The notes below the pieces were generated by a model that made no database searches, was not told the DNA's origin, and saw only the letters and a program-made list of their open reading frames with translations. Source: a virus. Taken from it: a stretch of 45,788 bases of DNA. Positions 3,711 through 45,369 of this stretch are shown in pieces; the stretch's first letter is position 1; every line of letters starts with the position of its first letter. The stretch lies in the IMG/VR virus record IMGVR_UViG_3300038544_000010; one strand, 5' to 3'. The translations under genes were made by a program, and so were the position numbers.

Positions 3711-4403
3711 ATGAATGAAAAACTATTGTCAGCGGCACGCATAGCGGAACTCGCTGGCGTTTCTAGACAGATTGTGACTCGCTTGTTTAACGAGAATTGC
3801 CCTGATGCAAAAGTAGGCACCAAATGGGATGTTTACAATCCGTATATTTTCGAATACCTAAAAGAGCGCGGCGTCGATGTTGTTGGCGCCAAACTTCAAT
3901 CAGCAAAAGAGCGTCGTGACCCGCAAGCAACCAAGCCAGTTAGTCAAAGCAGAGAAAAGTTATCTGGTAGATCTGGCGCCATTAAACCAGATGGCGATCA
4001 ATACGGCGGAGCTAAATTAGATCATGCTGATATAAGCGACTACCCAGAAATGACCCTGCGAGAAATCTCCCACCTACACGGCACAGAAGAAGAGTTTCGC
4101 GGATGGGCTGACGCTTACAAGAAAGTGCAAGACGGCATCGAGAAGGAAATTAAAAACAAAAAGCTCAAGGGCGAGGTCATTGAGAGGGATTTTGTAATAA
4201 CGCACGTTTTTGGCTTCATGCAAGAAATGGCATCGCGCATGCTGGTGGACTATCCACGAAAACTCGTTGAAATGGCCTATGCGCATTGTGAGTCTGGTGA
4301 CCCTAAGGAAGAGGCGGAAGCGTCAATTCGTGAAGAGCTTGGAAAGCCAATTCAGGCGGCCAAGGCGCAGATTATTAAAAATATAGGTGAGCCAGATGAA
4401 TGA
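3711..4403 (+). CDS. terS: Terminase small subunit, Nu1-like (N-terminal winged HTH)
   Basis: The ORF is open from 3678. The ATG at 3711 follows an AGGA RBS. N-terminus LLSAARIAELAGVSRQIVTRLF is HTH-like. The gene lies directly upstream of a GpA-type TerL and overlaps it. Confidence 0.65.
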   Translation: MNEKLLSAARIAELAGVSRQIVTRLFNENCPDAKVGTKWDVYNPYIFEYLKERGVDVVGAKLQSAKERRDPQATKPVSQSREKLSGRSGAIKPDGDQYGGAKLDHADISDYPEMTLREISHLHGTEEEFRGWADAYKKVQDGIEKEIKNKKLKGEVIERDFVITHVFGFMQEMASRMLVDYPRKLVEMAYAHCESGDPKEEAEASIREELGKPIQAAKAQIIKNIGEPDE

Positions 4404-6354
4404 TACCGAGTGGCTAGTTGAGCAATTTGCTGGCATAAAGGATCACCACGAAGTAATGACCGTCAGCAAATACGCAGAGCAAACGCGATACTTGCCATCG
4501 TCAGTCACGCCTATGGCTGGCTACTACTCTTTTGGTGTTACTCCTTACATCAAAGAGATCGCCGACTGCATGAGCCTGTCATCTCCTGTGCGTGTTGTTT
4601 CTGTCATGAAAGGGGTTCAAGTTGGCATGACCGTTGGGCTGCTGGAAAATACGATCCTGTATTGTATTGGTCACGTTAAGACTGCGCCAATAATGTCACT
4701 CACTGCTGACGCTGAAATTGCAAAACTTCGTATCGAACAATACGTGATGCCGATGCTTGAGCACTCTGGCATGTCTCACTTGATACAATCGAACGAGGGT
4801 GAAAGGTCTAGCCGAAAAACTGGTAAGACTAAGGATAAGATTTCTTTTCAAGGTGGTGGCTTCCTTTTGCCATTTGGCGCAAATAACGCTTCAAAGCTTC
4901 GCTCGTTCTCAATTCAGTATTTGCTAATAGACGAACCAGACGGATTTAAAACGTCGATTGGCAAGGATGGCGATCCAGTAAAATTGGCTTTTGACCGGAC
5001 TGCGGCATACTCTCAATCGAGAAAAATTTGCCTGCTGTCCACGCCGACAATTAAAGGACAGTCAAAGATAGAAGATCACTACGAGCTTGGTGATCAGCGT
5101 AAATACATGGTCCCATGCAAACACTGCAACTTCCCTCAAGAGCTTGAGTGGAACATGAAAAACAAAGAGACTGGCGAGATTTATGGTCTTGTTTTTAATC
5201 ATGATGACGGCGTGCTTGATATTGATTCAGTTCGTTACATCTGCAAAAACTGTGGCGGTGAACACAAAAACGCAGATAAGCAACGCATGCTTAAGCTCGG
5301 GAAGTGGAAACCAACCGCGACTCCTAAAGAGCCAAACAGACGCAGCTACCACATTAGCGGCTTATACTCACCAGTCGGATTTAAGTCGTGGGAAGATATT
5401 GTCATTGAGTGGTTTGATTGCTGGGATGTTGTCAAAAACAATGTGAAGTCTGTTGAAAAGTTGCAGGTATTCATGAATAACAATCTCGGGAAAACATTCC
5501 GCAAGGAAAACGAAAAGCTCAAACTCTCCACGATGTACGGACACCGCCGCACTGAGTATAACTTTGGCGAGATCCCTAACTATTTAACTAAGCGTGTCTG
5601 TGATTCGGAAATTATGCTTGTTACATGCGCAGTTGACGTTCACGATAAGAATTTGGCCGTTGGCATTTTTGGCTGGACAGCACAGCATCGCGCTTTCCTG
5701 CTCGACTATTGGAGACTTGAGGGTGACTGTACTCACTACGAAAATGAACCATGGCAGGAATTGAAATCACTGATATACAACAAAGTGTACGTGTCGGACG
5801 ACGGCAAAAAGTACCCAATACAATTAACGGTTGTAGATTCAGGCCACATGCAGAGCGTTGTTGTCGAGTTTTGCGAAAGTACGGACGGGACAATACCAAT
5901 CAAGGGTCTTGAAGGCGCTCAGAAAGGCGCTCAGTTCTCAGAATTCAAGCAGTCAACAACTCAGCTTGGCACGATAGCATTCAACATTAACACTGATTTA
6001 TACAAAGAGCGCTGGTACAACTCGCTTAAAAGACCGTGGATTGAGACACAAAAAATGCAGGAATACTGCTTTAATGTCCCGTCAAACATCCAAGAGGTGC
6101 AATTGAAAGAGTTAACAGCGGAAACAAAGGTTCCTGACAAGAACAAAGAGACTGGCGCATTCAAGGGATGGAAATGGCACCGAGCTGGTGATAACGAACT
6201 TTGGGATTTGCTAATATACAACAACGCAGCAATTGATATTCTTGCATGGGATGTCATGGTGAGACAGGGCGAGCGCGACACTGTTAACTGGTTAGACTTC
6301 TGGGAATTCTGCCGCACAGGCAATAACGGCCAACCCGTATACTATGAGAATTAG
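4396..6354 (+). CDS. terL: Terminase large subunit, lambda GpA family
   Basis: About 650 aa. Walker-A-like KGVQVGMT, Walker-B LLIDEPD, and zinc-ribbon CKHCNF...CKNCGG typical of GpA. The ATG at 4396 follows a GGTGA RBS (alternative GTG at 4387). Confidence 0.85.
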   Translation: MNDTEWLVEQFAGIKDHHEVMTVSKYAEQTRYLPSSVTPMAGYYSFGVTPYIKEIADCMSLSSPVRVVSVMKGVQVGMTVGLLENTILYCIGHVKTAPIMSLTADAEIAKLRIEQYVMPMLEHSGMSHLIQSNEGERSSRKTGKTKDKISFQGGGFLLPFGANNASKLRSFSIQYLLIDEPDGFKTSIGKDGDPVKLAFDRTAAYSQSRKICLLSTPTIKGQSKIEDHYELGDQRKYMVPCKHCNFPQELEWNMKNKETGEIYGLVFNHDDGVLDIDSVRYICKNCGGEHKNADKQRMLKLGKWKPTATPKEPNRRSYHISGLYSPVGFKSWEDIVIEWFDCWDVVKNNVKSVEKLQVFMNNNLGKTFRKENEKLKLSTMYGHRRTEYNFGEIPNYLTKRVCDSEIMLVTCAVDVHDKNLAVGIFGWTAQHRAFLLDYWRLEGDCTHYENEPWQELKSLIYNKVYVSDDGKKYPIQLTVVDSGHMQSVVVEFCESTDGTIPIKGLEGAQKGAQFSEFKQSTTQLGTIAFNINTDLYKERWYNSLKRPWIETQKMQEYCFNVPSNIQEVQLKELTAETKVPDKNKETGAFKGWKWHRAGDNELWDLLIYNNAAIDILAWDVMVRQGERDTVNWLDFWEFCRTGNNGQPVYYEN

Positions 6355-6396
6355 TATTGTGTTAAACTGTATCAATAAACCGATAGGACTAATTAA

Positions 6397-6657
6397 ATGA
6401 GCACAGACACTTTTCTTTGTGGCTTGATTGCCGACTTGGAAGCGCAGATAGCGGCGGCAATGGCGGCTATGGCTGACTATGCTGGTGATGGCATTGTTAG
6501 TTACACGTTTAACACTGGTCAGACCACGCAGACTGTTACCAAGGCGTCATTGAAGGACATGCAGGCTTACGTTGATAGTCTTCTTGCACGCCGCGACACA
6601 CTACGCCAGCGATGCAATTTAGACACTGCTGCGTTTAATGCGGCTCCGGGGTGGTGA
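6397..6657 (+). CDS. gpW-like head-tail joining protein
   Basis: 86-aa ORF between terL and the portal gene, exactly the lambda W position. The pattern resembles gpW (..DG.VSYTF......L.D...YV..L). Confidence 0.5.
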   Translation: MSTDTFLCGLIADLEAQIAAAMAAMADYAGDGIVSYTFNTGQTTQTVTKASLKDMQAYVDSLLARRDTLRQRCNLDTAAFNAAPGW

Positions 6658-6658
6658 T

Positions 6659-8305
6659 ATGGGTCTTGCAGAAAAAGTAAAGGCTTGGATTGGTGGCGGT
6701 GATAAAAATAAAGTTCCAGTCATCGGAATTGACCAACTCCCAACGGCTGCGGCAGGTAACTATGATGCGCCATACGAATTTGCGCAACTTAATGGCGACA
6801 AGTTTGTTGGTGGCTATGGAATAACGCAATTACATCTTATTGATTACTGGACTTTGCGCCAGCGATCTATCCAGTTGTACAACGAAAATCTATATGCTTC
6901 TGGCTTAATCAACCGATTTATTACAAATATCATCAACACCGGCTTAATGCTTGAGGCCAAGCCAGTTGCTAGTATTCTTGGCATTAGTGACGATGAGATG
7001 AGCAAGTGGACGGACGACATCGAGTCCCGTTTCACCATGTACGGCAACAACAAAAAGCTTGTGGACTTCTACGGAGAGAAAACGCTAGGCCAATTACAGG
7101 CACAGCGCGAGCTGCAAGCATTGGTTGAGGGTGATGTTCTTGTTGTTTATCACTTCGACAAGAAAACCATGCTACCAAAGATTCAGTTGATCTCATCTAA
7201 CTGCGTTCAGTCGCCAATTGATGGCGATCAAGGTTTGCGTGATGGTCATTACATTGAAAATGGCGTTGAATTCGACTCTGAGCGACGTGAGGTTGCCTAT
7301 CATGTGCTAAAAGATGATGGCTCATACGTCCGTTATCCGCGAATTGGTGAGCGTTCTGGCCGATTAATGGCGAATCTATACCGTCCGGGCAAGCGTATTA
7401 TGGGTCAGGTTCGCGGTATGCCACTGCTTGCTAACGTACTTCAATCACTTCGAGAGATTGATCGTTACCGTGATTCAGTGCAAAGAAAGGCTGTTACAAC
7501 ATCGTTCTTGGCTCTGGCTGTGGAAAAAGAAGCGGATACCATTAGCGCCAAACCATTAGGCGCTGCGTCAACACGATCTATGAGCGTAACTGGCGATAAT
7601 GGCTACAAGCTGAACTTGAAAAATTTCAATCCTGGCGTTTTTATCGATGATATGCCAGCCGGTCACAAAATTAAGATGATGGGCAGCGATGGCACAGATC
7701 TGTCATTTGGTGATTTTGAGGCGGCGATCATTAACGCCGTGGCGTGGTCAAAGGGTATGCCAGCGGAAGTGCTAAAAATGGCGTTTGGTTCCAACTATGC
7801 AGCGTCCAAACAGGCAACATCTGAGTTTTCTATGTTCTTGGATGAGGAGCGCACCAATACGACTACCACAAACGATCATCCTCTATATCATGAATGGCTA
7901 TATGTTGAGGCGCTTAAGGGCAATATTTCAGCGCCCGGCATGATTGAGGCATGGAACGATCCAAACCAATATGCTTTTGTTGGCGCATGGATTCAGTCGG
8001 ATTGGTCTGGCTCAGTTAAGCTAAACGCTGACTTTGTGAAAGAGGTTCAAGGCTGGAAACTTGCTGTCGAAAGCACGTTTGCCACAAACGAAATGGCATG
8101 TAAGGCGCTATTTGGTAAGAAGCATAACCTGATCGTTAATCAGTTAATACATGAAAACCAAAAAGTTGCGAAAGCCAATGATGCACTAGGTGAGTTTGCA
8201 GAAAAGCGCACTCAGAGTATAATAAGCACTAATGCCGACAATGATAATGACACTGGCGGCGGAAGTCAGGACAACGAAGGGGATACTGATGTATCTAGCA
8301 ACTGA
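6659..8305 (+). CDS. Portal protein, lambda gpB family
   Basis: About 548 aa, with synteny terL-W-portal-protease. The ATG at 6659 follows the stop of the upstream gene (TGAtATG). The ORF is open from 6638. Confidence 0.8.
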   Translation: MGLAEKVKAWIGGGDKNKVPVIGIDQLPTAAAGNYDAPYEFAQLNGDKFVGGYGITQLHLIDYWTLRQRSIQLYNENLYASGLINRFITNIINTGLMLEAKPVASILGISDDEMSKWTDDIESRFTMYGNNKKLVDFYGEKTLGQLQAQRELQALVEGDVLVVYHFDKKTMLPKIQLISSNCVQSPIDGDQGLRDGHYIENGVEFDSERREVAYHVLKDDGSYVRYPRIGERSGRLMANLYRPGKRIMGQVRGMPLLANVLQSLREIDRYRDSVQRKAVTTSFLALAVEKEADTISAKPLGAASTRSMSVTGDNGYKLNLKNFNPGVFIDDMPAGHKIKMMGSDGTDLSFGDFEAAIINAVAWSKGMPAEVLKMAFGSNYAASKQATSEFSMFLDEERTNTTTTNDHPLYHEWLYVEALKGNISAPGMIEAWNDPNQYAFVGAWIQSDWSGSVKLNADFVKEVQGWKLAVESTFATNEMACKALFGKKHNLIVNQLIHENQKVAKANDALGEFAEKRTQSIISTNADNDNDTGGGSQDNEGDTDVSSN

Positions 8306-21599: not shown

Positions 21600-21841
21600 C
21601 GACTCTTTACGTAGTTAATGGAGGGGAGCGTAAAAAACTCCCCCTTAATCTAATTAACTTCGAGTACGTTGAACAAAATACACGGATAACCATTCTAAAA
21701 ACGATGTATGCCCAGATTGCTAGAGACTTTGCCAACTGTCCGCGCCCGAACGAAATAGAAGATTGGGAATTATTCTTTTACTATGATCTACTTGTTCCTG
21801 AGTTGGTCAGTATGCAAAAGCAGGCTATGAAAAATGGGTAA
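21192..21841 (+). CDS. Tail assembly chaperone, -1 frameshift fusion (GT / E+E' analogue)
   Basis: The -1 frame is open from 21545 to the TAA at 21839-21841 and has no start codon of its own until 21704. A T5 run (CTTTTTA, 21582-21588) lies in the overlap window. The extension ends overlapping the tape-measure ATG at 21834. Confidence 0.55.
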
Positions 21842-23291
21842 ATACAAAATCAAAACGGTGTTTGAAAGCATCGATAAAATGACCGCACCAGTTAGGAAGA
21901 TGGCTGGTGCGGTCAATCGTTTTACAATATCGGCAGAAAACGGACTGCGAAAGGTTGATAACGCTTTTAATGGCATAAGCTCCACCATCACTAGCGGCAC
22001 AATGAATATTGCCAAATGGGGCGCAGGAATGGCCGCTGCTGGTGTTCTTGCCGCTGGTGTCCTTAACCAGCAACAGCAAGAAGTCGAAAACCTTACTAAT
22101 GCAGTTGGTGCCAATATCCAAACCGTTGAAGCCGTCTCTAGTGCGCTTGCCAATACTGGCTTGAGTGTCGATAACGTGATCGACTTGTACGAAGAGATGA
22201 ATAACAAGCTTGGTGAGTCAAAAGGACTTGAGGAAATCACAGCCGTTAGTGAATCGCTGGCTATATTAGGGCTGCGCTTTACTGACATTAAACACCTCAA
22301 GCCAGAAGAGCAGTTCAAGAAAATCACCAATGCCGCACTGAAAATGGAAGATGCAACCAAGGCACAAGCTGCTGCTGATATTCTGATGGGTGGCGAGGCT
22401 AACAAAGTGCTTGGTGTGCTGCGTCAGCAAGGCAAGTCAATGGAAGATATTATTGGCAACTACCAAATGCTATCTTTCAGAACCGAACGCTCTCGACAAG
22501 GTGCGCGTGATATGGCGCGAGAGCAAACCAAGTCTATCCAGCTATTCCAGTCGATGAGCAAAGAGATTTCTGGATTGGTTGGTGTTCACCTAGTACCACT
22601 AATCGACAAGTTCAACAAGTTCCTAATAGCAAACAAAGAGGTTATTGGACAGTCCATTGATAAATTCTTTGGTGAAATTGCTGCAAGTGTTGGCGATGTT
22701 TCTACGCTGTTCGATCGCGCACTTAACGGACTGAAGAGTTTGCACGCTAATTTCGAGTCAGTGAAAGATTGGGCAGTAACCATTGCAAAAGTCACCGCTG
22801 GCGTTGCTGCGTTAATGGCTGGATTGAATATCTTTATTGGCGTTATGACTGCGGTCAACTTGGTGATGGCTATGAACCCTGCAGTGTGGGTAGTTGCTGG
22901 TATTGCTGCGGCGGTTACTGCTTTAGCTGCGGCTGCGTACACAATTTACGACAATTGGGACGGCATCAAGTCGTACTTTGCAGGGCTGTATGATTACTTT
23001 GCTGACTTGTTTGGCGGCATTGCTGGGCTGTACGAAAGCACAATAGGAAGCGTGGTCAATGACCTTAAAAACGTGAAAAACTTCGTGTTTGGTTCAGACG
23101 ACGAAGAAAGCGACATCAACGTAACACGCAACGTTGCCAATGATGTAGTTATGAGTCCACAGCAACGCCAAGCAATGTACTACGGTAACATGCAGGGCAG
23201 TGTTGACGTTAACGTATATGGTCACAACGGCGTTAAACCTGAGCGTGAGACTTATACGAGTCGATTGCAGTTGGCGACTAGTGGTAGATAA
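21834..23291 (+). CDS. Tail tape measure protein
   Basis: 485 aa, helical, with a hydrophobic Ala/Gly/Val-rich segment (VTAGVAALMAGLNIFIGVMTAV...). Lies after the chaperone pair. Confidence 0.75.
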   Translation: MGKYKIKTVFESIDKMTAPVRKMAGAVNRFTISAENGLRKVDNAFNGISSTITSGTMNIAKWGAGMAAAGVLAAGVLNQQQQEVENLTNAVGANIQTVEAVSSALANTGLSVDNVIDLYEEMNNKLGESKGLEEITAVSESLAILGLRFTDIKHLKPEEQFKKITNAALKMEDATKAQAAADILMGGEANKVLGVLRQQGKSMEDIIGNYQMLSFRTERSRQGARDMAREQTKSIQLFQSMSKEISGLVGVHLVPLIDKFNKFLIANKEVIGQSIDKFFGEIAASVGDVSTLFDRALNGLKSLHANFESVKDWAVTIAKVTAGVAALMAGLNIFIGVMTAVNLVMAMNPAVWVVAGIAAAVTALAAAAYTIYDNWDGIKSYFAGLYDYFADLFGGIAGLYESTIGSVVNDLKNVKNFVFGSDDEESDINVTRNVANDVVMSPQQRQAMYYGNMQGSVDVNVYGHNGVKPERETYTSRLQLATSGR

Positions 23292-23294
23292 GCG

Positions 23295-23323
23295 TTGACA
23301 GCGTGTAATGGTTGGTTTATATT
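23295..23323 (+). promoter_or_regulatory. Near-consensus sigma70 promoter driving the non-coding RNA locus
   Basis: TTGACA (23295-23300), 17-nt spacer, TATATT (23318-23323). Confidence 0.65.
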
Positions 23324-23531
23324 TAATTTGCTGTAGGGCTGTGGCGACACTTCCTTAACAACCGTAGATTAGGATCTTTCGATTCCGCTACAGCACAAAA
23401 GCCCTTGCTCGCTAAGGGTGTTTTGTAGAGTGGTTTGGGTAGGCGATGACAAGCTTAATGCAATCGGATTCGTTTTCCTTATGTCAGGGAAAATCCCTAG
23501 TGATTGCTTAGGGGAAATCACTCCACAAAAT

Positions 23532-23657
23532 TGCGCGGTAAGTATCTCAACGTGAGTACGGATTAAAAGCTGTACGCCTAGAGGACTTCCTCGGTTTGGA
23601 TAGAGTTCGTGCGCTTCGGTGCATTCGTTGTGGGTTCGAATCCCACCCGCGCAGCCA
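23532..23657 (+). ncRNA. tRNA-like module: 7-bp acceptor stem, canonical T arm, discriminator G and encoded CCA; not a canonical tRNA
   Basis: TGCGCGG (23532-23538) pairs perfectly with CCGCGCA (23647-23653). T arm GTGGG-TTCGAAT-CCCAC (23630-23646). G then CCA at 23654-23657. The 91 nt between lack a D arm with GG and lack a 7-nt anticodon loop. Confidence 0.55.
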
Positions 23658-23663
23658 ATTCAC

Positions 23664-23694
23664 AAAAACCCGTCACTATGGCGGGTTTTTCTTT
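23664..23694 (+). terminator. Intrinsic terminator of the ncRNA locus
   Basis: AAACCCGTC-actat-GGCGGGTTTTTCTTT. Confidence 0.75.
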
Positions 23695-23708
23695 ATGCGC
23701 CATTCAAG

Positions 23709-23717
23709 TGTTATAAT
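23709..23717 (+). promoter_or_regulatory. Extended -10 promoter (TGtTATAAT)
   Basis: Exact TGnTATAAT 30 nt upstream of the 23747 start. Confidence 0.5.
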
Positions 23718-23746
23718 CCACCTATCACCATAAAAGGATCATAACC

Positions 23747-24994
23747 ATGCCATGGCAAGACCGATTAAAACCCTGCACCTACACCTCACCAAGTGGCGCA
23801 GTGTTCAATCTGCAATACGAAGACGTATCGCAGTCGTTAAAAAAGAAGACCACCACATTTGAGTTTGTTGGCACCAATGACGTCTACGTTCAGGACAATG
23901 GAGTCGGCGCTCGCACTATTCCGCTAACCATTTACTTCTCTGGAGAAGACCACGATTTACAGGCTAATGACTTTTTCGAAGCTATTGCTGAATCTGGCGC
24001 TGGTCAATTGCAGCATCCTGTTTATGGCTTGCAGACAGTTAACCCTGTTGGCGATCCATCTCGCAGTGACCGGCTAAAAACTGGTGCCAATGAATCCGCT
24101 TTTGATATTACGTTTGTTGTCACTATTACAAACCTTTACCCTGCATCGCAAAGCAACATCAAAGCCAATGCACAATCAGCTAGCGACGCATTCAACAACG
24201 CAACGGCAGAAGAGTACGACGAACTAATTACACTCAACACTGAGTCAGAACGCCAAACGCTAATCGGTGATAGCCAAGACTTACTAGGCACGTACAAGGA
24301 AGGCTTGCAGGACTTAACCAATGGCCAAGCAGATTTACAGCGAGACTTTAACGACATTCACGGGTCGATTAATGATGGCATTGACTTGTTAGTTGGTCAG
24401 CCGCTTACCTTGGCATTTCAGTCAATCCAGCTTGTTAAATCAGTCAGTAATGCCGCGGCACTGATTGAAGATAGATTGGACGCATACGGCAACCTACTTG
24501 ACGATTTAACCAATGACGACAAGACAGTTGCACCAACCTATGACTTTGTTGCCAATAACCGCCTAGCTACGCAAAACCTATACGCCTCTGCGACTGTTTC
24601 GGCAATGAATGACGCAATGGTATCAACTGACTTTAAAACACGCGACGAGGCTCTAGAGGCATCAGTAAAGGTCACTGATTATTTTGCTCAATACATGGCA
24701 TGGAAAGAGCGCAACTATGCAGCGTTAGATCAACTTGATACGGGTGAAGGCTACGTCAGTCTCCAAGAGCAAACCGCGCTAACTGCATCGTTGCTCATTG
24801 ATGTATCACTTGACCTAAAACGCCAGCGCACAATCATTCTTGACCGCGATATGTTTGTGATTGATTTTGCTTATCAGTATTTTGGCAGCACGGACAACGC
24901 CACGGTTGAAGAGGTGATTAAGCTGAATGGGCTTGATAACAGTGAGATTTGGGTTATTCCGAAAAATAGACTCATGAAATTTTATGAAGAGTAG
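23747..24994 (+). CDS. DNA circulation protein (Mu gpN-like tail/baseplate protein)
   Basis: The N-terminus WQDRLKPCTYTSPSGAVFNLQYEDVSQSLKKKTTTFEF...VQDNGVGARTIPLTIYFSGEDH...GAGQLQHPVYG matches the DNA_circ_N pattern. Confidence 0.75.
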   Translation: MPWQDRLKPCTYTSPSGAVFNLQYEDVSQSLKKKTTTFEFVGTNDVYVQDNGVGARTIPLTIYFSGEDHDLQANDFFEAIAESGAGQLQHPVYGLQTVNPVGDPSRSDRLKTGANESAFDITFVVTITNLYPASQSNIKANAQSASDAFNNATAEEYDELITLNTESERQTLIGDSQDLLGTYKEGLQDLTNGQADLQRDFNDIHGSINDGIDLLVGQPLTLAFQSIQLVKSVSNAAALIEDRLDAYGNLLDDLTNDDKTVAPTYDFVANNRLATQNLYASATVSAMNDAMVSTDFKTRDEALEASVKVTDYFAQYMAWKERNYAALDQLDTGEGYVSLQEQTALTASLLIDVSLDLKRQRTIILDRDMFVIDFAYQYFGSTDNATVEEVIKLNGLDNSEIWVIPKNRLMKFYEE

Positions 24995-25899: not shown

Positions 25900-27114
25900 A
25901 TGAGCAACTACACAGCCAAGCAAAACGACACTTTCGAGCTAATATCTCGGCGCATGTTCGGAACAGCTAACGAAACTGGTAACATACGCAAAGCCAACCC
26001 ATCACTACAAGAGCCTTTATCGGCTGGCGACTCGGTATTTATTCCTGCCAGTGCGAAAAGTAAAACCGTTGCCACGACTGGCGATGATGTGACGTTTCTG
26101 ATTAACGGGCAAGAATACCGATTTTTTAACTCAATCGAATTTTACTCACGCTTTGACTCTTTTGATTCGTGCATCATTACAGCGCCTTTTGAGCCTGACA
26201 ACTTGGCATTTCGCAAAACCTTTGTGCCGTTTTCGTACGCTAACGTTGATGTGTTTATTGGTAGCGAGTTGGTATTTTCTGGCACACAGATGGGGCTAAC
26301 GCCACAAGTAACGGCCAATTCAAAGGTTGTTATTATCGAGGCATACGCCCGTTGCGCTGTCACTAACGATTCATCACTACCGGTTAGCAGCTACCCAATT
26401 GAATTGCGTGGATTAAAACTCGATCGCATCGCACAAGAAATTTGCAAGCCGTTCCCGTTCCAAGTTAAAACAAATGTCGATGTTGGTGCCAAGTTCGAAT
26501 CGGCATCAATCAAGCAGCCAGACAAGATTTACCCGTTTTTAGTTGAGTTGGCCAAGCAGCGAGATTTGATAATCAGCAATGATGAGAATGGCGACTTGCT
26601 TATCACTCGCGCTGTTGATGAAAAGTCAGTTGCGCAGCTTTATGATGATGCCGCACCAGTGTTGTCAGTGACACCTATGCACGACGAGCAGAATTATTTC
26701 AGTGACTACACCGCAATCATCCCAATCATGCTAGACGGCTTACCAGTGGCTACGTACACAGCCAAAAACAAGCGATTGCAGAATGTATTGCGTGTTGAGA
26801 ACTACGAAGCTAATGACGCATTCAACGGCGAAGAAAGGCAGATAGCAGAGTCACGCAGAGCTCGCGGACTGGCTAACTCGATCGGCTACGAAGTATCACT
26901 GGCAACGATAAGAGATCCGCAAGGCAAGCTATACAGACCAAATAGTTACGTTAACCTAACCGCGCCAACCGCCATGATTTACAATGACACTAAGTTTTTT
27001 GTTAGGTCAGTTAACTTGGTACTAGACGGTAACAGCAAAACTTGCACACTGGATTTGGTATTGCCTGAATCGTTTAACGGCAAAGATGTGGAGAGATTTC
27101 CGTGGGAAGAATAG
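25900..27114 (+). CDS. Baseplate hub / tail protein (P2 gpD, Mu gpP family) with an N-terminal LysM-like (gpX-like) domain
   Basis: 404 aa, placed between the gpN-like and gpV-like genes. N-terminus YTAKQNDTFELISRRMFGT...IRKANPSLQEPLSAGDSVFIP is LysM-like. Confidence 0.6.
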   Translation: MSNYTAKQNDTFELISRRMFGTANETGNIRKANPSLQEPLSAGDSVFIPASAKSKTVATTGDDVTFLINGQEYRFFNSIEFYSRFDSFDSCIITAPFEPDNLAFRKTFVPFSYANVDVFIGSELVFSGTQMGLTPQVTANSKVVIIEAYARCAVTNDSSLPVSSYPIELRGLKLDRIAQEICKPFPFQVKTNVDVGAKFESASIKQPDKIYPFLVELAKQRDLIISNDENGDLLITRAVDEKSVAQLYDDAAPVLSVTPMHDEQNYFSDYTAIIPIMLDGLPVATYTAKNKRLQNVLRVENYEANDAFNGEERQIAESRRARGLANSIGYEVSLATIRDPQGKLYRPNSYVNLTAPTAMIYNDTKFFVRSVNLVLDGNSKTCTLDLVLPESFNGKDVERFPWEE

Positions 27115-28163: not shown

Positions 28164-28559
28164 ATGCAAGGTGATGTATTACTCTTTCAGTCGCTAGATG
28201 GCGGCGAAATCAAGGTTGAAAACAATCAGATAGTACTTACAGCTGGCTTAGAAAGTGCTGTGTACCTATCTTTGTTTTCGCCTGCTGATTGGTTTTTGAA
28301 TGACGTGGCAGATACTAACGAAGAGAAGTTATCAAGCGAGACTGAGCAGATTGTAGGTAGATTGCCAAACGTATCGAAAAACTATCCATTGCTAGAACAG
28401 GCAATTAAAAACGATCTATCTTGGCTCACAAGTCAAAAACTAGCCAAATCAATATCGGCTAGCGTCTCATCAAATCAAATCAACCGTGTTAATATTGTGA
28501 TAAATATCGACGGTGTAGAACTTACTTTCACAGAAGGCTGGTCAACGAATGGCAATTGA
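28164..28559 (+). CDS. Baseplate protein, Mu gp46-like
   Basis: 131 aa. N-terminus GDVLLFQSLDGGEI...LTAGLESAVYLSLFS matches the GP46-family pattern, and synteny agrees. Confidence 0.6.
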   Translation: MQGDVLLFQSLDGGEIKVENNQIVLTAGLESAVYLSLFSPADWFLNDVADTNEEKLSSETEQIVGRLPNVSKNYPLLEQAIKNDLSWLTSQKLAKSISASVSSNQINRVNIVINIDGVELTFTEGWSTNGN

Positions 28560-29742
28560 TACCACCACAATTAAGGGCATTTCTGACGGCATAGTGTCAC
28601 AGCTTGAGCAGTCGCTAAACGTTCAATTCCCATTATTACCGAAAGCATTTAACCGAGTACTGGCAAAGGCCATTGCATCAGTGTTTATCATGCTCACCCA
28701 CTACAGCAACTTCATTCAGTTGCAGCAATACGTCTCAACGTGCTCGGCTAACAACATCACTATCCTTGGCTTTACGATCAACCCATTAAACTTCTGGGGC
28801 GATCTCATTGGTGTTGGAGATAGGAAAGCTGGTGAGCGTGCTATTCATACTGTTACCGTCACAGTGTCACAAACTAGCGGCGTTATTGATGCTGGCACAC
28901 AGTTGATCTCAGCCACAAACGGATTTACCTATATCACTTCGCAAGCTTACAATCTCACAGCACCTAGCATCGACATTGAAGTCAAAGCGGCCAATGATGA
29001 AGCAGGTAACGCTGGCGTTGGTGCGCTTGGTAATCTGGAAAACGGCACAGAAATATCATTTGTTAACCCACCTGTTAACGTTGGTAAAAATGCCGTTGTT
29101 ATTGGTCAAGTGCAAACTGGTGCCGACCCAGAAACCGCAGACGCTTACCGCCGACGTGTTATCACTGCATTTAAACGACGCAAGCAAGGTGGCGCATACA
29201 TCGACTATAAAATCTGGGGCGAAGAAGTTCCTGGCATTGTCAATGTCTACCCATACACCGGGCAAGCTGGTGAAGTGGATGTTTATTGTGAAGCGACAGA
29301 AGCATCAAGTGGCAATCCTGACGGCATACCAACACCTAGCCAGTTAGAGGCGGTTAAAGCGTCTATCGAGTTTGACCAAAATGGCAAGGCAACACGCCGA
29401 CCTGCTGGCACATTTGTTAACACCTACGCAATCACAAGAACTGGATTTAAAGTGAAAGTTAACGGCCTTGTTGTTGATAATATCGCGCAGGTTCAGCAAG
29501 AGATTGAACGAGCTGTGACTGAGTTTTTTGTTGCTGCTGAGCCGTACATTGAAGGGTTATCAGTGCCACCTCGTACCGATACCATTTCAACTGTTGAGGT
29601 TGAAGCGGTGATCGTCGATGTGGTTAAAGCAAATAACGGCACATTCCTAAACGCACAAGTGTCACTTGCAGACGATACGCCAGTATCAATCTATCAACTT
29701 GGCATAGGTGAGAAAGCTAAACTATCGGAGATTGCATTCTAA
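28549..29742 (+). CDS. Baseplate J-like protein (Mu gp47 / P2 gpJ family)
   Basis: 397 aa, overlaps both neighbours, in the canonical position. Confidence 0.65.
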   Translation: MAIDTTTIKGISDGIVSQLEQSLNVQFPLLPKAFNRVLAKAIASVFIMLTHYSNFIQLQQYVSTCSANNITILGFTINPLNFWGDLIGVGDRKAGERAIHTVTVTVSQTSGVIDAGTQLISATNGFTYITSQAYNLTAPSIDIEVKAANDEAGNAGVGALGNLENGTEISFVNPPVNVGKNAVVIGQVQTGADPETADAYRRRVITAFKRRKQGGAYIDYKIWGEEVPGIVNVYPYTGQAGEVDVYCEATEASSGNPDGIPTPSQLEAVKASIEFDQNGKATRRPAGTFVNTYAITRTGFKVKVNGLVVDNIAQVQQEIERAVTEFFVAAEPYIEGLSVPPRTDTISTVEVEAVIVDVVKANNGTFLNAQVSLADDTPVSIYQLGIGEKAKLSEIAF

Positions 29743-31008: not shown

Positions 31009-31328
31009 GATCGTTACTGGTAGCACTGTTGCTTATTCCTTCATTGGCACTAGCCGCCCCAAACATGGCGCTTTCTTCTGGCTCAGTCGCTTGTAAAACG
31101 CTGACTACGCTTAACTATGCCGAGCGCATGTTAATGAATGAGCCAGTGCTTGAGGTGCAGAAGGCAGAAGTAAACAACAACTGCACAACGGTAAAAGAAA
31201 GCCGAGAAGTGACTGCCTTTGATATTGGCGTCACGGCTAAAGTTGAATTTTTTGCGCTTGGCAAATTGGACGTGTATTACGTCAATAGCCGAGATTTAAT
31301 TAAACATGAAGATGAGGCAGCACAATGA
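31005..31328 (+). CDS. Small secreted protein (107 aa, cleavable signal peptide)
   Basis: MRSLLVALLLIPSLALA|APN looks like a Sec signal. Translationally coupled to the fibre gene (ATGA at 31325). Confidence 0.55.
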   Translation: MRSLLVALLLIPSLALAAPNMALSSGSVACKTLTTLNYAERMLMNEPVLEVQKAEVNNNCTTVKESREVTAFDIGVTAKVEFFALGKLDVYYVNSRDLIKHEDEAAQ

Positions 31329-32341
31329 GTTATTCACCTGCTCAAATGTTTCCGGGGGCGTTCGATCCCGATGTAGCTTTTCTAGGCGGGAAGTTTAAAG
31401 ACTCGTCTGCGCCTGGCGTTTATGATGGTTCGCCATTAAGCACAATCCTGTTTAACCAAGAGCAGGCTTTCTGGGATGCTGTCATGATCGCTGGTGGAGA
31501 GACTTACAATAATACAGAGGATGTGCCAGATACGTCTCAGTTATTCAAAGCGCTACAACAAAGTCGCCAAGTCGAACCAAGCAACAATCAATGGAACGGC
31601 TTTTTCGACCCTGCTCACCAATCTCAACTGCCATCACCTGCTGAATATCCAGATCCGGGCGGTACAGCTTACAGCCCTGGTGACGAATGGTCACTTGGTA
31701 ACTTTGCAAGCAGCGGCTCTATTACAAGTAGCAGCACAGGTATTACGTTTACTGTTGGTGCTTATAAGCTATTTACCTACACACCTGAACAACTTGCATT
31801 AATCGACGAGACGAAGGTGCCAGTATATATCGTTGATGAAACTGGTAAGCGTCATTTTCTGACTAATGCCACGAATGGCGTTAACGTAACAAAGCCTGAC
31901 TCAACCACGTTAAAAGTTGAACTCACTAACGCTATTTTTGCTGAACTTGGCATCACTAAGGTTTGGGAATTCTTCGTTACAGATGGTGTTGGATATGTGC
32001 CGAGGCTGAGCCCTGATGCATTAAAAAACACCATATCTTACTCATTATTTAACTCGACAAGTCTTTCTGATAAATTATCATCAAGAGACTTTGACATCGA
32101 ATACACAAATGATTCAGTCTACCCAAGACGAGTATATATAGTATCACTTGAACCGGTAGTTGGCGGACAGGCCGGCGCGTCTCTTCTTGTTGACGGCAAT
32201 AATGTAGGTAAATTTCAATTCGGCGCTGCTGGAAACTTGCAGTGGACATACTCATTTTCCGCCATTGTAAAGCCTGGTGAAAAATATGAACTAGTAAGAG
32301 ACAGTGTTGGTGATAACATTGCTCAGTGGTTTGAGGATTAA
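31325..32341 (+). CDS. Tail fibre protein (338 aa)
   Basis: Lies after the baseplate genes and before a fibre-assembly-like gene. Ser/Thr/Gly-rich middle region. Confidence 0.5.
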   Translation: MSYSPAQMFPGAFDPDVAFLGGKFKDSSAPGVYDGSPLSTILFNQEQAFWDAVMIAGGETYNNTEDVPDTSQLFKALQQSRQVEPSNNQWNGFFDPAHQSQLPSPAEYPDPGGTAYSPGDEWSLGNFASSGSITSSSTGITFTVGAYKLFTYTPEQLALIDETKVPVYIVDETGKRHFLTNATNGVNVTKPDSTTLKVELTNAIFAELGITKVWEFFVTDGVGYVPRLSPDALKNTISYSLFNSTSLSDKLSSRDFDIEYTNDSVYPRRVYIVSLEPVVGGQAGASLLVDGNNVGKFQFGAAGNLQWTYSFSAIVKPGEKYELVRDSVGDNIAQWFED

Positions 32342-36304: not shown

Positions 36305-36362
36305 TCCTACATTGGTTGTGATAATATTCAATTATAAACCAACCATTAAGGAATTGAAACAG

Positions 36363-45130: not shown

Positions 45131-45157
45131 AACTCCTCCTGTCTGCGCGTTGATGTA

Positions 45158-45186
45158 ACTTTAAAAGCTACACGGTGTAATGTCAA
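45158..45186 (-). promoter_or_regulatory. Early promoter
   Basis: On the - strand: TTGACA (45186-45181), 17 nt, TAAAGT (45163-45158). Confidence 0.55.
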
Positions 45187-45224
45187 TAATTAGTTTGCGT
45201 AAATTTAAACACGGCATCATGTAA
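45170..45224. promoter_or_regulatory. Two operator-like 16-bp boxes (ACACGGnnTnATGTnA)
   Basis: ACACGGTGTAATGTCA (45170-45185, overlapping the -35 and containing the palindrome TACAC-G-GTGTA at 45169-45179) and ACACGGCATCATGTAA (45209-45224). 12 of 16 positions are identical. Confidence 0.45.
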
Positions 45225-45307
45225 CTGGATTTTGTGATTTTATTGCCAGATTAGTTTATAATTACCCCAGGAGGACACCACCATGCCCATAGGGATGCCA
45301 AAGTGGT

Positions 45308-45335
45308 TTGAATAAACTTTAAAATCACCTATAAT
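45308..45335 (+). promoter_or_regulatory. Candidate promoter for the junction-spanning gene
   Basis: TTGAAT (45308-45313), 16 nt, TATAAT (45330-45335). Confidence 0.45.
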
Positions 45336-45369
45336 ACAAACTATGGGTTTTTATTGTTAGGTATTGTTT

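What the first reader, a model, noticed from the sequence alone, without database searches (positions are those of the whole stretch)
23292..23746. Promoter-to-terminator structured RNA ending in a tRNA-like acceptor/T-arm minihelix with encoded CCA, wedged between tape measure and baseplate genes
This is the longest ORF-free stretch (455 bp) in a genome where most genes overlap start to stop.

Flanking signals:
- Promoter: TTGACA-17 nt-TATATT at 23295-23323, one of the best sigma70 matches in the window.
- Terminator: CCCGTC/GGCGGG plus a T-run at 23664-23694.

Helices visible between them:
- A 7-bp closing helix, GCTGTAG (23330-23336) with CTACAGC (23388-23394).
- A GCGA (GNRA)-capped GTG/CAC helix at 23341-23350.
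- GGATC-tttc-GA(T)TCC at 23372-23386.
- A 12-bp hairpin at 23395-23426 (ACAAAAGCCCTT-gctcgct-AAGGGTgTTTTGT) that itself looks like a leaky terminator or attenuator.
- AGGGA-aaa-TCCCT at 23486-23498.
- AGTGATT-10 nt-AATCACT at 23499-23522.

The 126-nt 3' module (23532-23657):
- The acceptor stem TGCGCGG/CCGCGCA is perfect over 7 bp. A 7-mer should match by chance in about 300 nt only around 2% of the time.
- The T arm GTGGG-TTCGAAT-CCCAC is canonical and is followed by discriminator G and CCA.
- The core is non-canonical. It has a 6-bp hairpin with the 8-nt loop AUUAAAAG (23556-23575), GAGG-ACUU-CCUC (23581-23592) and a UUCG-tetraloop hairpin (23610-23623). There is no D arm with the GG dinucleotide.

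Interpretation:
- An acceptor/T-arm minihelix is the minimal substrate for RNase P, CCA-adding enzyme, EF-Tu and some aminoacyl-tRNA synthetases.
- The RNA could therefore be a tRNA mimic or decoy (for example against tRNA-targeting defences), a tmRNA-like or Y-RNA-like element, or a new class.
- It is not explained by any protein gene here, and no integrase is present to make it an attP.
Basis: partly seen in the sequence, partly recalled or inferred. Interest (0 to 1): 0.8.

Follow-up and report, generated by a model that had tools for sequence, protein, structure and literature searches.

The report
Anticodon-less tRNA look-alike in phage
A marine phage carries a self-contained RNA cassette, in a slot where close relatives carry ordinary tRNA genes, whose last 126 bases are a tRNA that has lost its anticodon loop and gained two conserved hairpins, so it is probably a tRNA look-alike rather than a decoder.

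Summary
The feature is real. A near-consensus promoter (23295-23323) and an intrinsic terminator (23664-23694) bracket about 330 nt that no gene caller annotates. The 3' 126 nt (23532-23657) have a perfect 7-bp acceptor stem, a canonical T arm, discriminator G and encoded CCA.

Three sub-claims fail. A G18G19-type D loop is present. This is the second-longest ORF-free stretch, not the longest. Two listed hairpins are replaced by a long leader hairpin (23419-23531, z -4.2).

Synteny explains it. The slot between the tape-measure and baseplate genes is a hotspot for accessory ("moron") genes. One relative (L291) has the same leader followed by tRNA-Gly, tRNA-Met and tRNA-Arg; another has tRNA-Pro. 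The window's module sits where L291 has tRNA-Gly.

The module is a tRNA derivative, closest to tRNA-Arg(UCG). Its anticodon loop is reduced to six bases (cUUCGg), and 48 extra nt lie between position 9 and the D region. The two hairpins in those 48 nt recur in a second phage (L163) with four compensatory pair changes, which argues against simple decay.

ARAGORN and Rfam find nothing. The attP, tmRNA and Y-RNA readings fail.

Best reading: an RNase-P-matured, non-decoding tRNA mimic, analogous to T4 species 1 RNA. Its target is unknown.

The parts
23295..23323 (+). Sigma70-type promoter TTGACA-17-TATATT, directly after the tape-measure stop codon. The predicted start is near 23330.
   Evidence: 11/12 match; only zero-mismatch site in the window. 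Its 16-nt spacer TAATGGTTGGTTTATA recurs in a second promoter-like site at 36333-36348 on the minus strand. Homologous promoters open the cassettes of L156, L162, L163 and L292.
23330..23394 (+). 5' leader domain closed by GCUGUAG/CUACAGC. It is window-specific.
   Evidence: The helix is present in the sequence. The fold is not significant (z -0.99). Relatives have other modules at this position.
23395..23426 (+). T1: a conserved terminator-like or attenuator hairpin, ACAAAAGCCCUU...AAGGGUGUUUUGU.
   Evidence: Flagged as terminator-like. It is conserved in L163 and L291 at 87-92% identity with a stem that still pairs.
23419..23531 (+). Leader long hairpin. Its base ends one nucleotide before the tRNA-like 5' end.
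   Evidence: z -4.24, 0 of 200 shuffles. The basal 16-17 bp are conserved in L291 with 2 double and 2 single compensatory changes. In L291 the hairpin ends immediately before tRNA-Gly.
23532..23657 (+). 126-nt tRNA-derived, anticodon-less RNA. The acceptor stem is 23532-23538 / 23647-23653, with U8 A9 at 23539-23540, G73 at 23654 and CCA at 23655-23657.
   Evidence: Sequence. ARAGORN draws a 78-nt cloverleaf, tRNA-?(tc), once 23541-23588 are removed in silico and the score threshold is lowered. The 9 nt at the 5' end and 28 nt at the 3' end are identical to a tRNA-Asn of an alphaproteobacterial MAG. The body is most similar to tRNA-Arg.
23556..23575 (+). Extra hairpin HP1: GUACGG-AUUAAAAG-CUGUAC.
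   Evidence: Conserved in L163. The 8-nt loop is identical and 3 of 6 pairs changed on both sides while staying paired.
23581..23592 (+). Extra hairpin HP2: GAGG-ACUU-CCUC. It competes with a D-stem pairing CCUC/GAG.
   Evidence: Conserved in L163 as GCGG-ACAU-CUGC, with 1 double and 1 single compensatory change.
23593..23606 (+). D-loop-like segment GGUUUGGAUAGAGU, with G18G19 and A20.
   Evidence: It aligns to GGGUAGGAAGAGU in L163.
23609..23624 (+). Anticodon-arm relic GUGCGC-UUCG-GUGCAU. It can be read as a 5-bp stem with a 6-nt loop CUUCGG, which is a tRNA-Arg(UCG) loop CUUCGGA lacking one base.
   Evidence: ARAGORN draws a 6-nt loop with two-base 'anticodon' tc. Searches show that natural phage tRNA-Arg(UCG) genes carry CUUCGGA.
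23630..23646 (+). Canonical T arm GUGGG-UUCGAAU-CCCAC.
   Evidence: It is the only part matched by the Rfam tmRNA model (14.3 bits).
23664..23694 (+). Intrinsic terminator T2. It begins 7 nt after the CCA.
   Evidence: All weak Rfam hits align on this hairpin. Terminators with different stems occupy the same position in L159, L150, L156, L162, L291 and L292.
23709..23717 (+). Extended -10 promoter element TGTTATAAT for the baseplate operon. It lies outside the RNA gene but belongs to the slot architecture.
   Evidence: The sequence is conserved as TGTTATAAT or TGATATACT in L159, L150, L156 and L291. Promoter function is inferred.

Best explanation
The region is a phage accessory ('moron') cassette of the tRNA-operon type. 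Its single 'tRNA' has been remodelled into a non-decoding tRNA look-alike.

Proposed steps:
1. Host RNA polymerase starts at the strong promoter near 23330.
2. Part of the transcription stops at the T1 hairpin. Read-through RNA folds the long leader hairpin, whose base ends at position -1.
3. RNase P cuts between U23531 and U23532, as it would for the true tRNA that relatives carry at this position.
4. The 3' trailer and terminator are trimmed back to the encoded CCA.
5. The product is a stable 126-nt RNA with a genuine tRNA top half: 7-bp acceptor stem, T arm, G73 and CCA.
6. The anticodon end is sealed as a cUUCGg tetraloop (6-nt loop), so the RNA cannot read a codon.
7. The D region carries two added hairpins that are kept by selection.

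The RNA therefore most likely acts by being bound in place of a tRNA. A protein that recognises the tRNA elbow or acceptor end would be the partner, for example a tRNA-directed defence nuclease or a CCA-end-modifying toxin. The extra hairpins may provide a second contact.

What is shown: anatomy, tRNA ancestry, positional equivalence to real tRNAs, and conservation of the extra hairpins and the leader hairpin.

What is inferred: transcription, RNase P and 3' processing, stability, loss of decoding, and the decoy role.
For: - Slot and synteny. Relatives have the slot empty or filled with protein genes. Others have cassettes with the same promoter, T1, leader hairpin and terminator framework, holding tRNA-Gly/Met/Arg (L291) or tRNA-Pro (L292).
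- Position. The window's module starts within one base of where L291's tRNA-Gly starts, after ...CUCCACAAAAU.
- tRNA ancestry. The acceptor stem is perfect, with U8 A9, a G18G19/A20 D loop, a 17-nt anticodon-arm segment, a 5-nt variable loop, a canonical T arm, G73 and CCA. ARAGORN draws a cloverleaf after in-silico removal of 48 nt. The result is 72-78% identical to tRNA-Arg and tRNA-Asn genes. Nine 5' and 28 3' bases are identical to a real tRNA-Asn.
- Non-decoding. ARAGORN and the Rfam tRNA model find nothing in the native sequence, even at E <= 10. The anticodon loop has 6 nt.
- Selection on the additions. Window 23539-23606 aligns to L163 2260-2327 with score 52, against 15.7 +/- 2.7 for shuffles. 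Of the 10 hairpin pairs, 4 changed on both sides, 1 on one side and none broke. The 8-nt loop is invariant.
- Leader hairpin. z -4.24, conserved with compensatory changes.
- Expression signals..
- Precedent. T4 species 1 RNA (rnaC) is a 139-nt stable RNA at the end of the T4 tRNA cluster. It has a canonical T arm next to its terminal stem and an unknown role.
- Phage tRNAs as counter-defence are discussed in PMC10264068 (listed; not read in detail).
Against: - No expression, processing or binding data exist.
- All 23 public contigs with this cassette are identical, so there is no variation within the phage.
- The only homologue of the tRNA-like part (L163) is cut by a contig end before the anticodon relic, T arm and 3' acceptor. 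Selection on the top half is therefore untested.
- In L163 the hairpin module is not preceded by a sequence resembling UGCGCGG. It may not be embedded in a tRNA frame there.
- The cUUCGg loop is one deletion away from a normal tRNA-Arg(UCG) loop, which is what a fresh pseudogene would look like.
- The module's fold is not more stable than shuffles (z -1.27).
- HP2 and a canonical D stem are mutually exclusive, so the L-shape is not assured.
- No defence target or partner gene is evident in the genome.
Confidence: 0.55

Rival explanations
1. It is a decaying tRNA pseudogene. A phage tRNA-Arg(UCG) gene in a tRNA-operon cassette was inactivated by a one-base deletion in the anticodon loop and a 48-nt insertion. 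It has simply not yet been deleted, and the RNA has no function.
For: - The loop CUUCGG is CUUCGGA minus one base.
- There are other body lesions: a C10-U25 mismatch, G at position 14 in the D-arm reading, and an extra base at position 26.
- ARAGORN and Rfam are negative.
- The slot turns over quickly among relatives.
- Defective 'tRNA-???' or 'tRNA-OTHER' genes with 6-nt loops also sit in the tRNA cluster of Klebsiella phage KP8.
Against: - The 48 'inserted' bases are conserved in a second phage whose tape-measure protein is only 61% identical. There are four compensatory pair changes and an invariant loop, which neutral decay does not predict.
- All visible lesions lie in the lower half, while the 12 top-half pairs, the T loop and the CCA are flawless.
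- A compact 45.8-kb genome retains 455 bp with a near-consensus promoter and a strong terminator.
Confidence: 0.22
2. The tRNA frame is only a processing and stability scaffold. The functional parts are the leader RNA (23330-23531) and/or hairpins HP1 and HP2. The tRNA-like fold recruits RNase P and protects the 3' end, in the manner of MALAT1/mascRNA or engineered tRNA scaffolds.
For: - The leader hairpin is the most significant structure in the region (z -4.24) and is conserved.
- HP1 and HP2 are conserved with an invariant loop.
- In L163 the hairpin module follows the leader directly.
- tRNA scaffolds are known to stabilise inserted RNAs in E. coli. PMC3753655 was listed; the mechanism is from general knowledge.
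Against: - No target complementary to the HP1 loop or the leader was found in the window. There were no antisense matches of 12 nt or more apart from a 16-nt promoter repeat and a 12-nt match at chance level (E about 1).
- Relatives use the same leader in front of ordinary tRNAs, so the leader does not need a special tRNA-like partner.
Confidence: 0.15
3. It is still a working but unorthodox tRNA. For example, the 48 nt are removed or tolerated, and the RNA is charged (Arg) and decodes CGN or a shifted frame.
For: - The ArgRS identity-type features A20, C35 and G36 are retained, along with G73 and CCA.
- The spacing from the D loop to the 3' end is exactly canonical.
Against: - A 6-nt loop closed by C-G around UUCG is a very stable tetraloop and presents no anticodon.
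- No bacterial splicing system is known for an insert at position 9/10.
- No group I intron or ribozyme signature was found in Rfam.
Confidence: 0.04
4. It is an attP site or a captured tRNA 3' fragment used for integration.
For: - tRNA 3' ends are common attachment sites.
- A tRNA 3' fragment with the same 24 bases exists in a proteobacterial MAG (L007).
Against: - The 5' acceptor strand, U8 A9, the D loop and the anticodon-arm relic are all present, not just a 3' fragment.
- No integrase, resolvase or transposase domain was found in any of the large ORFs searched.
- The 20-mer lies in a real tRNA in only one of 185,579 species genomes, and not in Vibrionaceae.
- Relatives carry whole tRNA genes at this position.
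Confidence: 0.02

Closest known systems
Bacteriophage T4 species 1 RNA (rnaC), and species 2 RNA (rnaD)
   Same: - It is a small stable RNA encoded at the end of a phage tRNA cluster.
- At 139 nt it is close to the window's 126 nt.
- It has a canonical T arm (CCGGG-UUCGAAU-CCCGG) directly before the 3' strand of a terminal stem.
- In the predicted fold (z -4.57) a large domain sits where the D arm would be, and a hairpin without an anticodon loop sits where the anticodon arm would be.
- Its function is still unknown (PMC3014915 and PMC9697503).
   Different: - There is no sequence similarity outside the T loop (z -0.1).
- rnaC has no encoded CCA and a weaker terminal stem.
- No homologue of HP1 or HP2 is present.
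- The link is one of architecture and genomic setting, not demonstrated common descent.
Canonical phage-encoded tRNA genes, especially tRNA-Arg(UCG), and the tRNA operons in the same slot of L291 and L292
   Same: - Same genomic position, promoter, leader and terminator frame.
- Same acceptor, T-arm and CCA design, D-loop sequence, variable-loop length and overall spacing.
   Different: - The anticodon loop has 6 nt rather than 7.
- There are 48 extra nt with two hairpins.
- It is not detected by ARAGORN or Rfam RF00005.
tmRNA (SsrA) tRNA-like domain
   Same: - An acceptor stem plus T arm plus CCA with no anticodon arm, inside a larger RNA.
- Sister cassettes in the same slot carry a tmRNA-like tag reading frame.
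   Different: - C3-G70 instead of the G3-U70 needed for alanylation.
- No tag frame, pseudoknots or P2 helix in the window.
- ARAGORN tmRNA mode is negative, and Rfam tmRNA matches only the 17-nt T arm.
mascRNA/MALAT1-type and viral tRNA-like structures; Bacillus cereus tRNA-Other
   Same: - tRNA-shaped RNAs that do not decode and are handled by tRNA-processing enzymes.
- tRNA-Other is a pseudo-tRNA with a regulatory phenotype (PMC3399842).
   Different: - They come from different organisms, with no sequence relationship.
- mascRNA lacks an encoded CCA.
- Plant-virus tRNA-like structures are 3' ends of genomes.
- The Rfam mascRNA hit is chance level (13.6 bits, E 9.7).

Membership tests
Canonical tRNA (Rfam RF00005 / ARAGORN) | 7-bp acceptor stem, discriminator base and 3' CCA | tested here: met
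   UGCGCGG/CCGCGCA is 7/7 paired, followed by G73 and an encoded CCA.
Canonical tRNA (Rfam RF00005 / ARAGORN) | T arm with a 5-bp stem and a UUCRANY loop, adjacent to the acceptor 3' strand | tested here: met
   GUGGG-UUCGAAU-CCCAC at 23630-23646.
Canonical tRNA (Rfam RF00005 / ARAGORN) | D arm starting two bases after the acceptor stem, with G18G19 | tested here: not met
   A G18G19/A20 D loop exists at 23593-23606. However, 48 extra nt separate it from U8 A9, and its stem competes with the conserved hairpin HP2.
Canonical tRNA (Rfam RF00005 / ARAGORN) | 5-bp anticodon stem with a 7-nt loop (U33, anticodon, purine 37) | tested here: not met
   The segment is either a 6-bp stem with a UUCG tetraloop or a 5-bp stem with a 6-nt loop. 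ARAGORN reports a two-base 'anticodon'.
Canonical tRNA (Rfam RF00005 / ARAGORN) | Detected by a tRNA gene finder or covariance model | tested here: not met
   ARAGORN finds 0 genes in the window. Rfam finds nothing at gathering score and no RF00005 hit at E <= 10. Detection succeeds only after in-silico deletion and a lowered threshold.
tmRNA | G3-U70 in the acceptor stem (AlaRS identity) | tested here: not met
   Position 3-70 is C-G.
tmRNA | Tag reading frame with a resume codon and no start codon, ending in a degron such as LAA | tested here: not met
   Three-frame translation of the window cassette shows no such frame, unlike L156, L162 and L291.
tmRNA | Detected by ARAGORN tmRNA mode or the Rfam tmRNA models | tested here: not met
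   Only a 17-nt T-arm match at 14.3 bits against a gathering score of 47.
attP / tRNA 3' fragment of an integrative element | Identity to the 3' part of a host tRNA gene | tested here: not met
   The 20-mer TTCGAATCCCACCCGCGCAG has 5 hits in 185,579 species genomes. One is a real tRNA (tRNA-Asn of an alphaproteobacterial MAG), and none is in a Vibrio-type host.
attP / tRNA 3' fragment of an integrative element | Integrase or recombinase encoded by the element | tested here: not met
   No integrase, resolvase or transposase domain was found in the large ORFs searched with Pfam or PHROGs. Small ORFs and a few tail-region ORFs of 300 aa or more (25900-27114, 28549-29742, 31325-32341) were not scanned.
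T4 species 1 RNA (rnaC)-like stable RNA | Encoded within or at the end of a phage tRNA gene cluster | tested here: met
   The window module occupies the position of the first tRNA in the homologous tRNA operon of L291.
T4 species 1 RNA (rnaC)-like stable RNA | 120-140 nt, with a canonical T arm next to a terminal stem and no anticodon loop | tested here: met
T4 species 1 RNA (rnaC)-like stable RNA | Sequence homology to rnaC | tested here: not met
   The local alignment outside the T arm is no better than shuffles (z -0.1).
T4 species 1 RNA (rnaC)-like stable RNA | Stable RNA matured by tRNA-processing enzymes | not testable with these tools
   This needs Northern blots or RACE, plus RNase P assays.
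Y-RNA-like YrlA | Ro-binding stem formed by the 5' and 3' ends, a closed tRNA-like module, and a linked rsr (Ro) gene | tested here: not met
   Here the 5' and 3' ends form an open acceptor stem with a free CCA. No Rfam Y-RNA hit was found. No TROVE/Ro domain was found in the ORFs scanned.

The most novel reading that the evidence does not exclude
The 126-nt RNA may be the founding example of a class of 'expanded-D-domain' tRNA mimics carried in phage translation-RNA islands, alongside tRNAs and tmRNA-like tag modules.

In this reading it acts as a dedicated decoy for host immune factors that attack the tRNA elbow or CCA end. Alternatively it is the acceptor-arm partner of a phage-borne, split trans-translation-like system whose tag-coding piece is the module seen in sister cassettes and in 161 phage genomes.
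Probability: 0.12. Interest if true: 0.85.

Novelty: new variant of a known kind. Interest (0 to 1): 0.55.

Why it matters
Phage tRNA genes are now seen as counter-defence tools as well as codon supplements. The role of the oversized tRNA-like RNAs in phage tRNA clusters (T4 species 1 and 2) has been open for fifty years.

This element gives a compact case to work on. It has a tRNA top half kept intact, an anticodon end sealed shut, and two added hairpins under selection. Its natural 'controls' are relatives that carry ordinary tRNAs, or nothing, in the same slot.

If it binds a tRNA-directed host factor, it would be a new kind of RNA anti-defence decoy. If it is a pseudogene, it shows how quickly phage tRNA cassettes decay.

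The surrounding cassette family also exposes an unannotated tmRNA-like tag module that is widespread in phages.

Tried and rejected
**Homologue searches that found nothing useful**
- blastn of the region against 50,697 phage records matched only the start of the downstream gene.
- blastn against plasmids gave one tRNA-like 64-nt match.
- Exact or gapped pattern scans of IMG/VR found nothing: acceptor/T arm (0 hits), loop-anchored pattern (1 chance hit) and HP1/HP2 pattern (0 hits).
- The leader motifs gave only chance hits: 8 and 7.
- A 14-mer was far too unspecific (119+ hits).
- The D-loop/CUUCGG/T-loop pattern retrieved ordinary tRNA-Arg(UCG) genes. This turned out to be informative for ancestry.
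It gave no homologue, so that scan was effectively wasted.
- The last contig look-up (L306) showed another non-tRNA cassette.

**Readings rejected**
- attP.
- tmRNA or Y RNA.
- Known ribozyme or riboswitch: no Rfam hit. The best hit, the rnk leader at 28.8 bits against a gathering score of 55, aligns only on the terminator.
- Antisense regulator of a phage gene: no antisense complementarity of 12 nt or more in the window apart from the 16-nt promoter repeat and one 12-nt match at chance level (E about 1).
- Homology to T4 rnaC/rnaD or to the KP8 123-nt tRNA-like.

**Left open**
- A 21-codon ORF at 23446-23511 (MTSLMQSDSFSLCQGKSLVIA) shares its first codons and an in-frame indel with L162. It lies inside the long hairpin and could not be tested.

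**Caveat**
- The 'closest to tRNA-Arg' ranking used a tRNA set enriched for tRNA-Arg by my own search patterns. It is supportive evidence, not proof.
Full report
**1. What is in the sequence**

The window is a complete 45.8-kb phage genome recovered from metagenomes. The same sequence is present on 23 public contigs, and the ones examined are identical across the region. It has a lambda-type terminase, portal and capsid. It also has a contractile tail sheath, a tape-measure protein (21834-23291) and Mu-type baseplate genes. Its nearest cultured relatives are Vibrio phages, at about 55% protein identity.

Between the tape-measure stop codon and the DNA-circulation gene (23747-24994) lie 455 nt in which no gene caller places a gene. 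The promoter TTGACA-17-TATATT (23295-23323) is an 11/12 match and the only perfect instance of that pattern in the genome. Its 16-nt spacer recurs in a second promoter-like site at 36333-36348 on the other strand. A strong hairpin plus U-run (23664-23694) ends the unit.

As a whole the transcript folds better than all shuffles (z -3.09).

The claim that this is the longest ORF-free stretch is slightly wrong. The stretch 45131-45788 is longer.

**2. Anatomy of the 3' module**

Bases 23532-23657 have these tRNA features:
- a flawless 7-bp acceptor stem (UGCGCGG/CCGCGCA), followed by U8 A9;
- a canonical T arm (GUGGG-UUCGAAU-CCCAC);
- discriminator G and an encoded CCA.

From there to the 3' end the spacing is exactly that of a class I tRNA: one linker base, a 17-nt anticodon-arm segment, a 5-nt variable loop, then the T arm.

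The anticodon-arm segment is GUGCGC-UUCG-GUGCAU. Read as a tRNA arm, it is a 5-bp stem with a 6-nt loop CUUCGG. That is the loop CUUCGGA of natural phage tRNA-Arg(UCG) genes minus one base. Closing C-G around UUCG makes a very stable tetraloop, so no anticodon is presented.

Between A9 and the D region lie 48 extra nt (23541-23588) containing two hairpins:
- HP1: GUACGG-AUUAAAAG-CUGUAC, 23556-23575.
- HP2: GAGG-ACUU-CCUC, 23581-23592.

Gene finders behave as follows:
- ARAGORN finds no tRNA or tmRNA in the window.
- Rfam finds nothing at gathering thresholds.
- In permissive mode Rfam gives only terminator look-alikes and a 17-nt T-arm match to tmRNA.
- If the 48 nt are removed in silico and the ARAGORN threshold is lowered, a clean 78-nt cloverleaf 'tRNA-?(Glu|Arg)(tc)' appears.
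- That spliced sequence is 72-78% identical to tRNA-Arg genes and to one tRNA-Asn. The comparison set was enriched for tRNA-Arg by my own patterns.

**3. Not an attachment site**

The 20-nt 3' end occurs in only five of 185,579 species genomes. One occurrence is a real tRNA-Asn in an alphaproteobacterial MAG, which shares 9 nt at the 5' end and 28 nt at the 3' end with the window. One is a tRNA 3' fragment, and three are coding sequence. None is in a Vibrio-type host.

No integrase-type domain is present in the large ORFs that were searched. The 5' acceptor strand with U8 A9 would be expected by chance less than about 0.1% of the time in 200 nt. This is a whole tRNA frame, not a 3' fragment.

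**4. What relatives have in the same slot**

Homologues of the two flanking proteins gave contigs that show the slot in many states.

| State of the slot | Examples |
|---|---|
| Tape-measure gene abuts the baseplate gene | L157 |
| Only a terminator and a promoter | L159 |
| Protein-coding accessory genes | L150, L161, L001-L003, cultured Vibrio phages |
| ORF-free cassettes opened by a homologous promoter and closed by a terminator | L156, L162, L163, L160, L291, L292, L306 |

The decisive case is L291, whose flanking protein is 76% identical to the window's. After the same T1 hairpin and the same kind of long leader hairpin come tRNA-Gly(UCC), tRNA-Met(CAU) and tRNA-Arg(UCU), then the terminator. 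L292 has tRNA-Pro(UGG).

The leader ends ...CUCCACAAAAU(U) in both the window and L291, and the tRNA or tRNA-like starts immediately afterwards. The window's module is therefore the positional equivalent of a real tRNA in a phage tRNA operon.

**5. The leader**

This is the most significant structure in the region (z -4.24, 0 of 200 shuffles). Its basal 16-17 pairs are kept in L291 through two double and two single compensatory changes.

The T1 hairpin (23395-23426) was flagged as terminator-like. It is conserved in L163 and L291.

The 65-nt domain 23330-23394 is window-specific and not significant on its own.

**6. Are the extra 48 nt junk?**

No. L163 comes from a phage whose tape-measure protein is 61% identical. 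It carries a homologue of window 23539-23606, with alignment score 52 against 15.7 +/- 2.7 for shuffles.

- In HP1 the 8-nt loop AUUAAAAG is identical, and three of six pairs are changed on both sides yet still pair.
- In HP2 one pair changed on both sides and one on one side.
- No pair is broken.

Unfortunately the L163 contig ends at the D-loop-like segment. The anticodon relic, T arm and 3' acceptor cannot be compared. In L163 the module follows the leader without a UGCGCGG-like strand, so it is uncertain whether it is embedded in a tRNA frame there.

Because HP2 is conserved and uses the same CCUC that a canonical D stem would need, the real fold is probably a four-way junction. An enlarged 'D domain' (HP1, HP2 and the GG-containing strand) would replace the D arm, as in the minimum-free-energy fold.

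**7. Mechanism**

*Shown:* a tRNA-derived gene, in the place of a tRNA, with expression signals, an intact top half, a sealed anticodon end, and added hairpins under selection.

*Inferred:*
- Transcription starts near 23330, with partial termination at T1.
- RNase P cleaves at 23531/23532. U at position -1, the 7-bp stem and the GCCA end are what the bacterial enzyme prefers (general knowledge).
- The 3' end is trimmed back to the encoded CCA.
- The product is a stable 126-nt RNA that cannot decode.

I think it most likely acts as a tRNA look-alike that occupies a tRNA-binding factor. A decoy for tRNA-directed host defences is the most attractive specific version, given current views of phage tRNAs (PMC10264068). 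Nothing here tests that.

The main rival is a recent pseudogene. The tetraloop is one deletion away from a working tRNA-Arg(UCG) loop, and defective tRNA-like genes also occur in other phage tRNA clusters. The conservation of the 'insert' in L163 and the spotless top half argue against this rival.

A third option is that the tRNA frame merely processes and stabilises the leader or the hairpins.

**8. Comparison with known systems**

The closest known thing is T4 species 1 RNA (rnaC). It is a 139-nt stable RNA at the end of the T4 tRNA cluster, with a canonical T arm next to its terminal stem. It has a large domain in place of the D arm, a hairpin in place of the anticodon arm, and a still unknown function.

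There is no sequence homology. I therefore file the window's RNA as working like, and placed like, rnaC, not as a member of that family.

It fails the defining tests for a canonical tRNA, tmRNA, attP and YrlA (see the membership table).

**9. Side finding**

Sister cassettes (L156, L162, L291) begin with a ~190-nt module that contains a start-codon-less reading frame strikingly like SsrA tags. The tags are ANDNFYGEMRLVA, ANDNFYGESRLAA and ANDEINGEVRLVA, and synonymous changes support the frame.

- The module matches 161 phage records, mostly unannotated. They include N4-like coliphages and Klebsiella phages, and Vibrio phage MAG7.
- In Klebsiella phage KP8 it lies in the tRNA cluster (tag ANDDVVLMAA).
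- There it aligns to the tag region of Rfam tmRNA models below threshold: 33.2 bits, E 3.9e-5 in a 461-nt search.
- It is followed by a 123-nt tRNA-like RNA with acceptor stem, T arm and CCA.
- ARAGORN calls no tmRNA in KP8.

The window lacks this module. Even so, it shows that these slots are islands of translation-related RNAs.

**10. Verdict**

The element is a new variant of a known kind: a non-decoding tRNA-derived RNA in a phage tRNA cassette. Its interest is moderate, and would rise if the top half proves to be under selection or a partner is found.

Noticed in passing
L156 2591-2760; L162 2944-3112; L291 6-179; L295 (Vibrio phage MAG7, OQ674082.1) 1501-1624; L296 (Klebsiella phage KP8, MG922974.1) 1198-1377. 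Not in the window.: A ~190-nt RNA module carries a tmRNA-like tag reading frame with no start codon. The tags are ANDNFYGEMRLVA, ANDNFYGESRLAA, ANDEINGEVRLVA, ANDESNGEMRLVA and ANDDVVLMAA. It matches 161 phage records (N4-like coliphages and Klebsiella phages, Erwinia, Shigella, Vibrio), mostly in unannotated DNA. ARAGORN calls no tmRNA there, and the Rfam tmRNA models hit below threshold (33.2 bits against a gathering score of 47). No tRNA-like domain formed by the 5' and 3' ends was seen.
   Followed up: partly
L296 (Klebsiella phage KP8) about 1393-1515, and the rest of 1123-2525: A ~123-nt tRNA-like RNA (UACUGGU ... GUAGG-UUCGAAU-CCUUC-ACCAGUA-A-CCA, with an interior of about 85 nt) lies directly after the tag module. 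It is conserved at about 90% identity in roughly 43 G7C-like phages and is unannotated. The same 1.4-kb ORF-free stretch holds further T-arm-bearing 'tRNA-OTHER' elements, and the cluster has a tRNA-??? with a 6-nt anticodon loop.
   Followed up: partly
L018 (IMGVR_UViG_3300037420_001936), minus strand, about 4722-4650: A tRNA-like gene missed by ARAGORN has an acceptor stem, D arm and T arm, but its anticodon arm is replaced by a short CCC-GAAA-GGG tetraloop hairpin. This is another anticodon-less tRNA look-alike in a viral contig.
   Followed up: no
window 36333-36348 (minus strand) and 23306-23321: An exact 16-nt repeat, TAATGGTTGGTTTATA, forms the spacer and -10 part of two promoter-like sites. 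A related GATTGGTTATATTT is in the L156 promoter. It may be a phage-specific promoter or operator motif.
   Followed up: partly
window 45131-45788 (continuing to 1-71 if the genome is circular): This is the longest stretch without an ORF of 60 aa or more (658 nt), longer than the region under study. Rfam at gathering thresholds and ARAGORN find nothing there, and it was not examined further.
   Followed up: no
window 23446-23511; L162 about 3213-3350: A small ORF inside the leader hairpin (MTSLMQSDSFSLCQGKSLVIA) shares its first codons (MTS), several later residues and an in-frame 3-nt indel with a longer ORF in L162, which has an AGGAAGG Shine-Dalgarno-like sequence. It is unclear whether this is a micro-protein or a coincidence of RNA-level conservation.
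   Followed up: partly
L161 (ENA ERZ21849166 contig_7444) 4274-7245: A homologue of the DNA-circulation gene lies next to BRCT-domain, rpoD-like and dnaG-like genes. This could be a prophage remnant, phage-borne sigma and primase genes, or a chimeric contig.
   Followed up: no
window 2346-3443: A 365-aa ORF with a T5orf172/MUG113 (GIY-YIG-like) domain sits between a D12-class DNA methyltransferase and the small terminase subunit. It may be a homing-endonuclease-like insertion.
   Followed up: no
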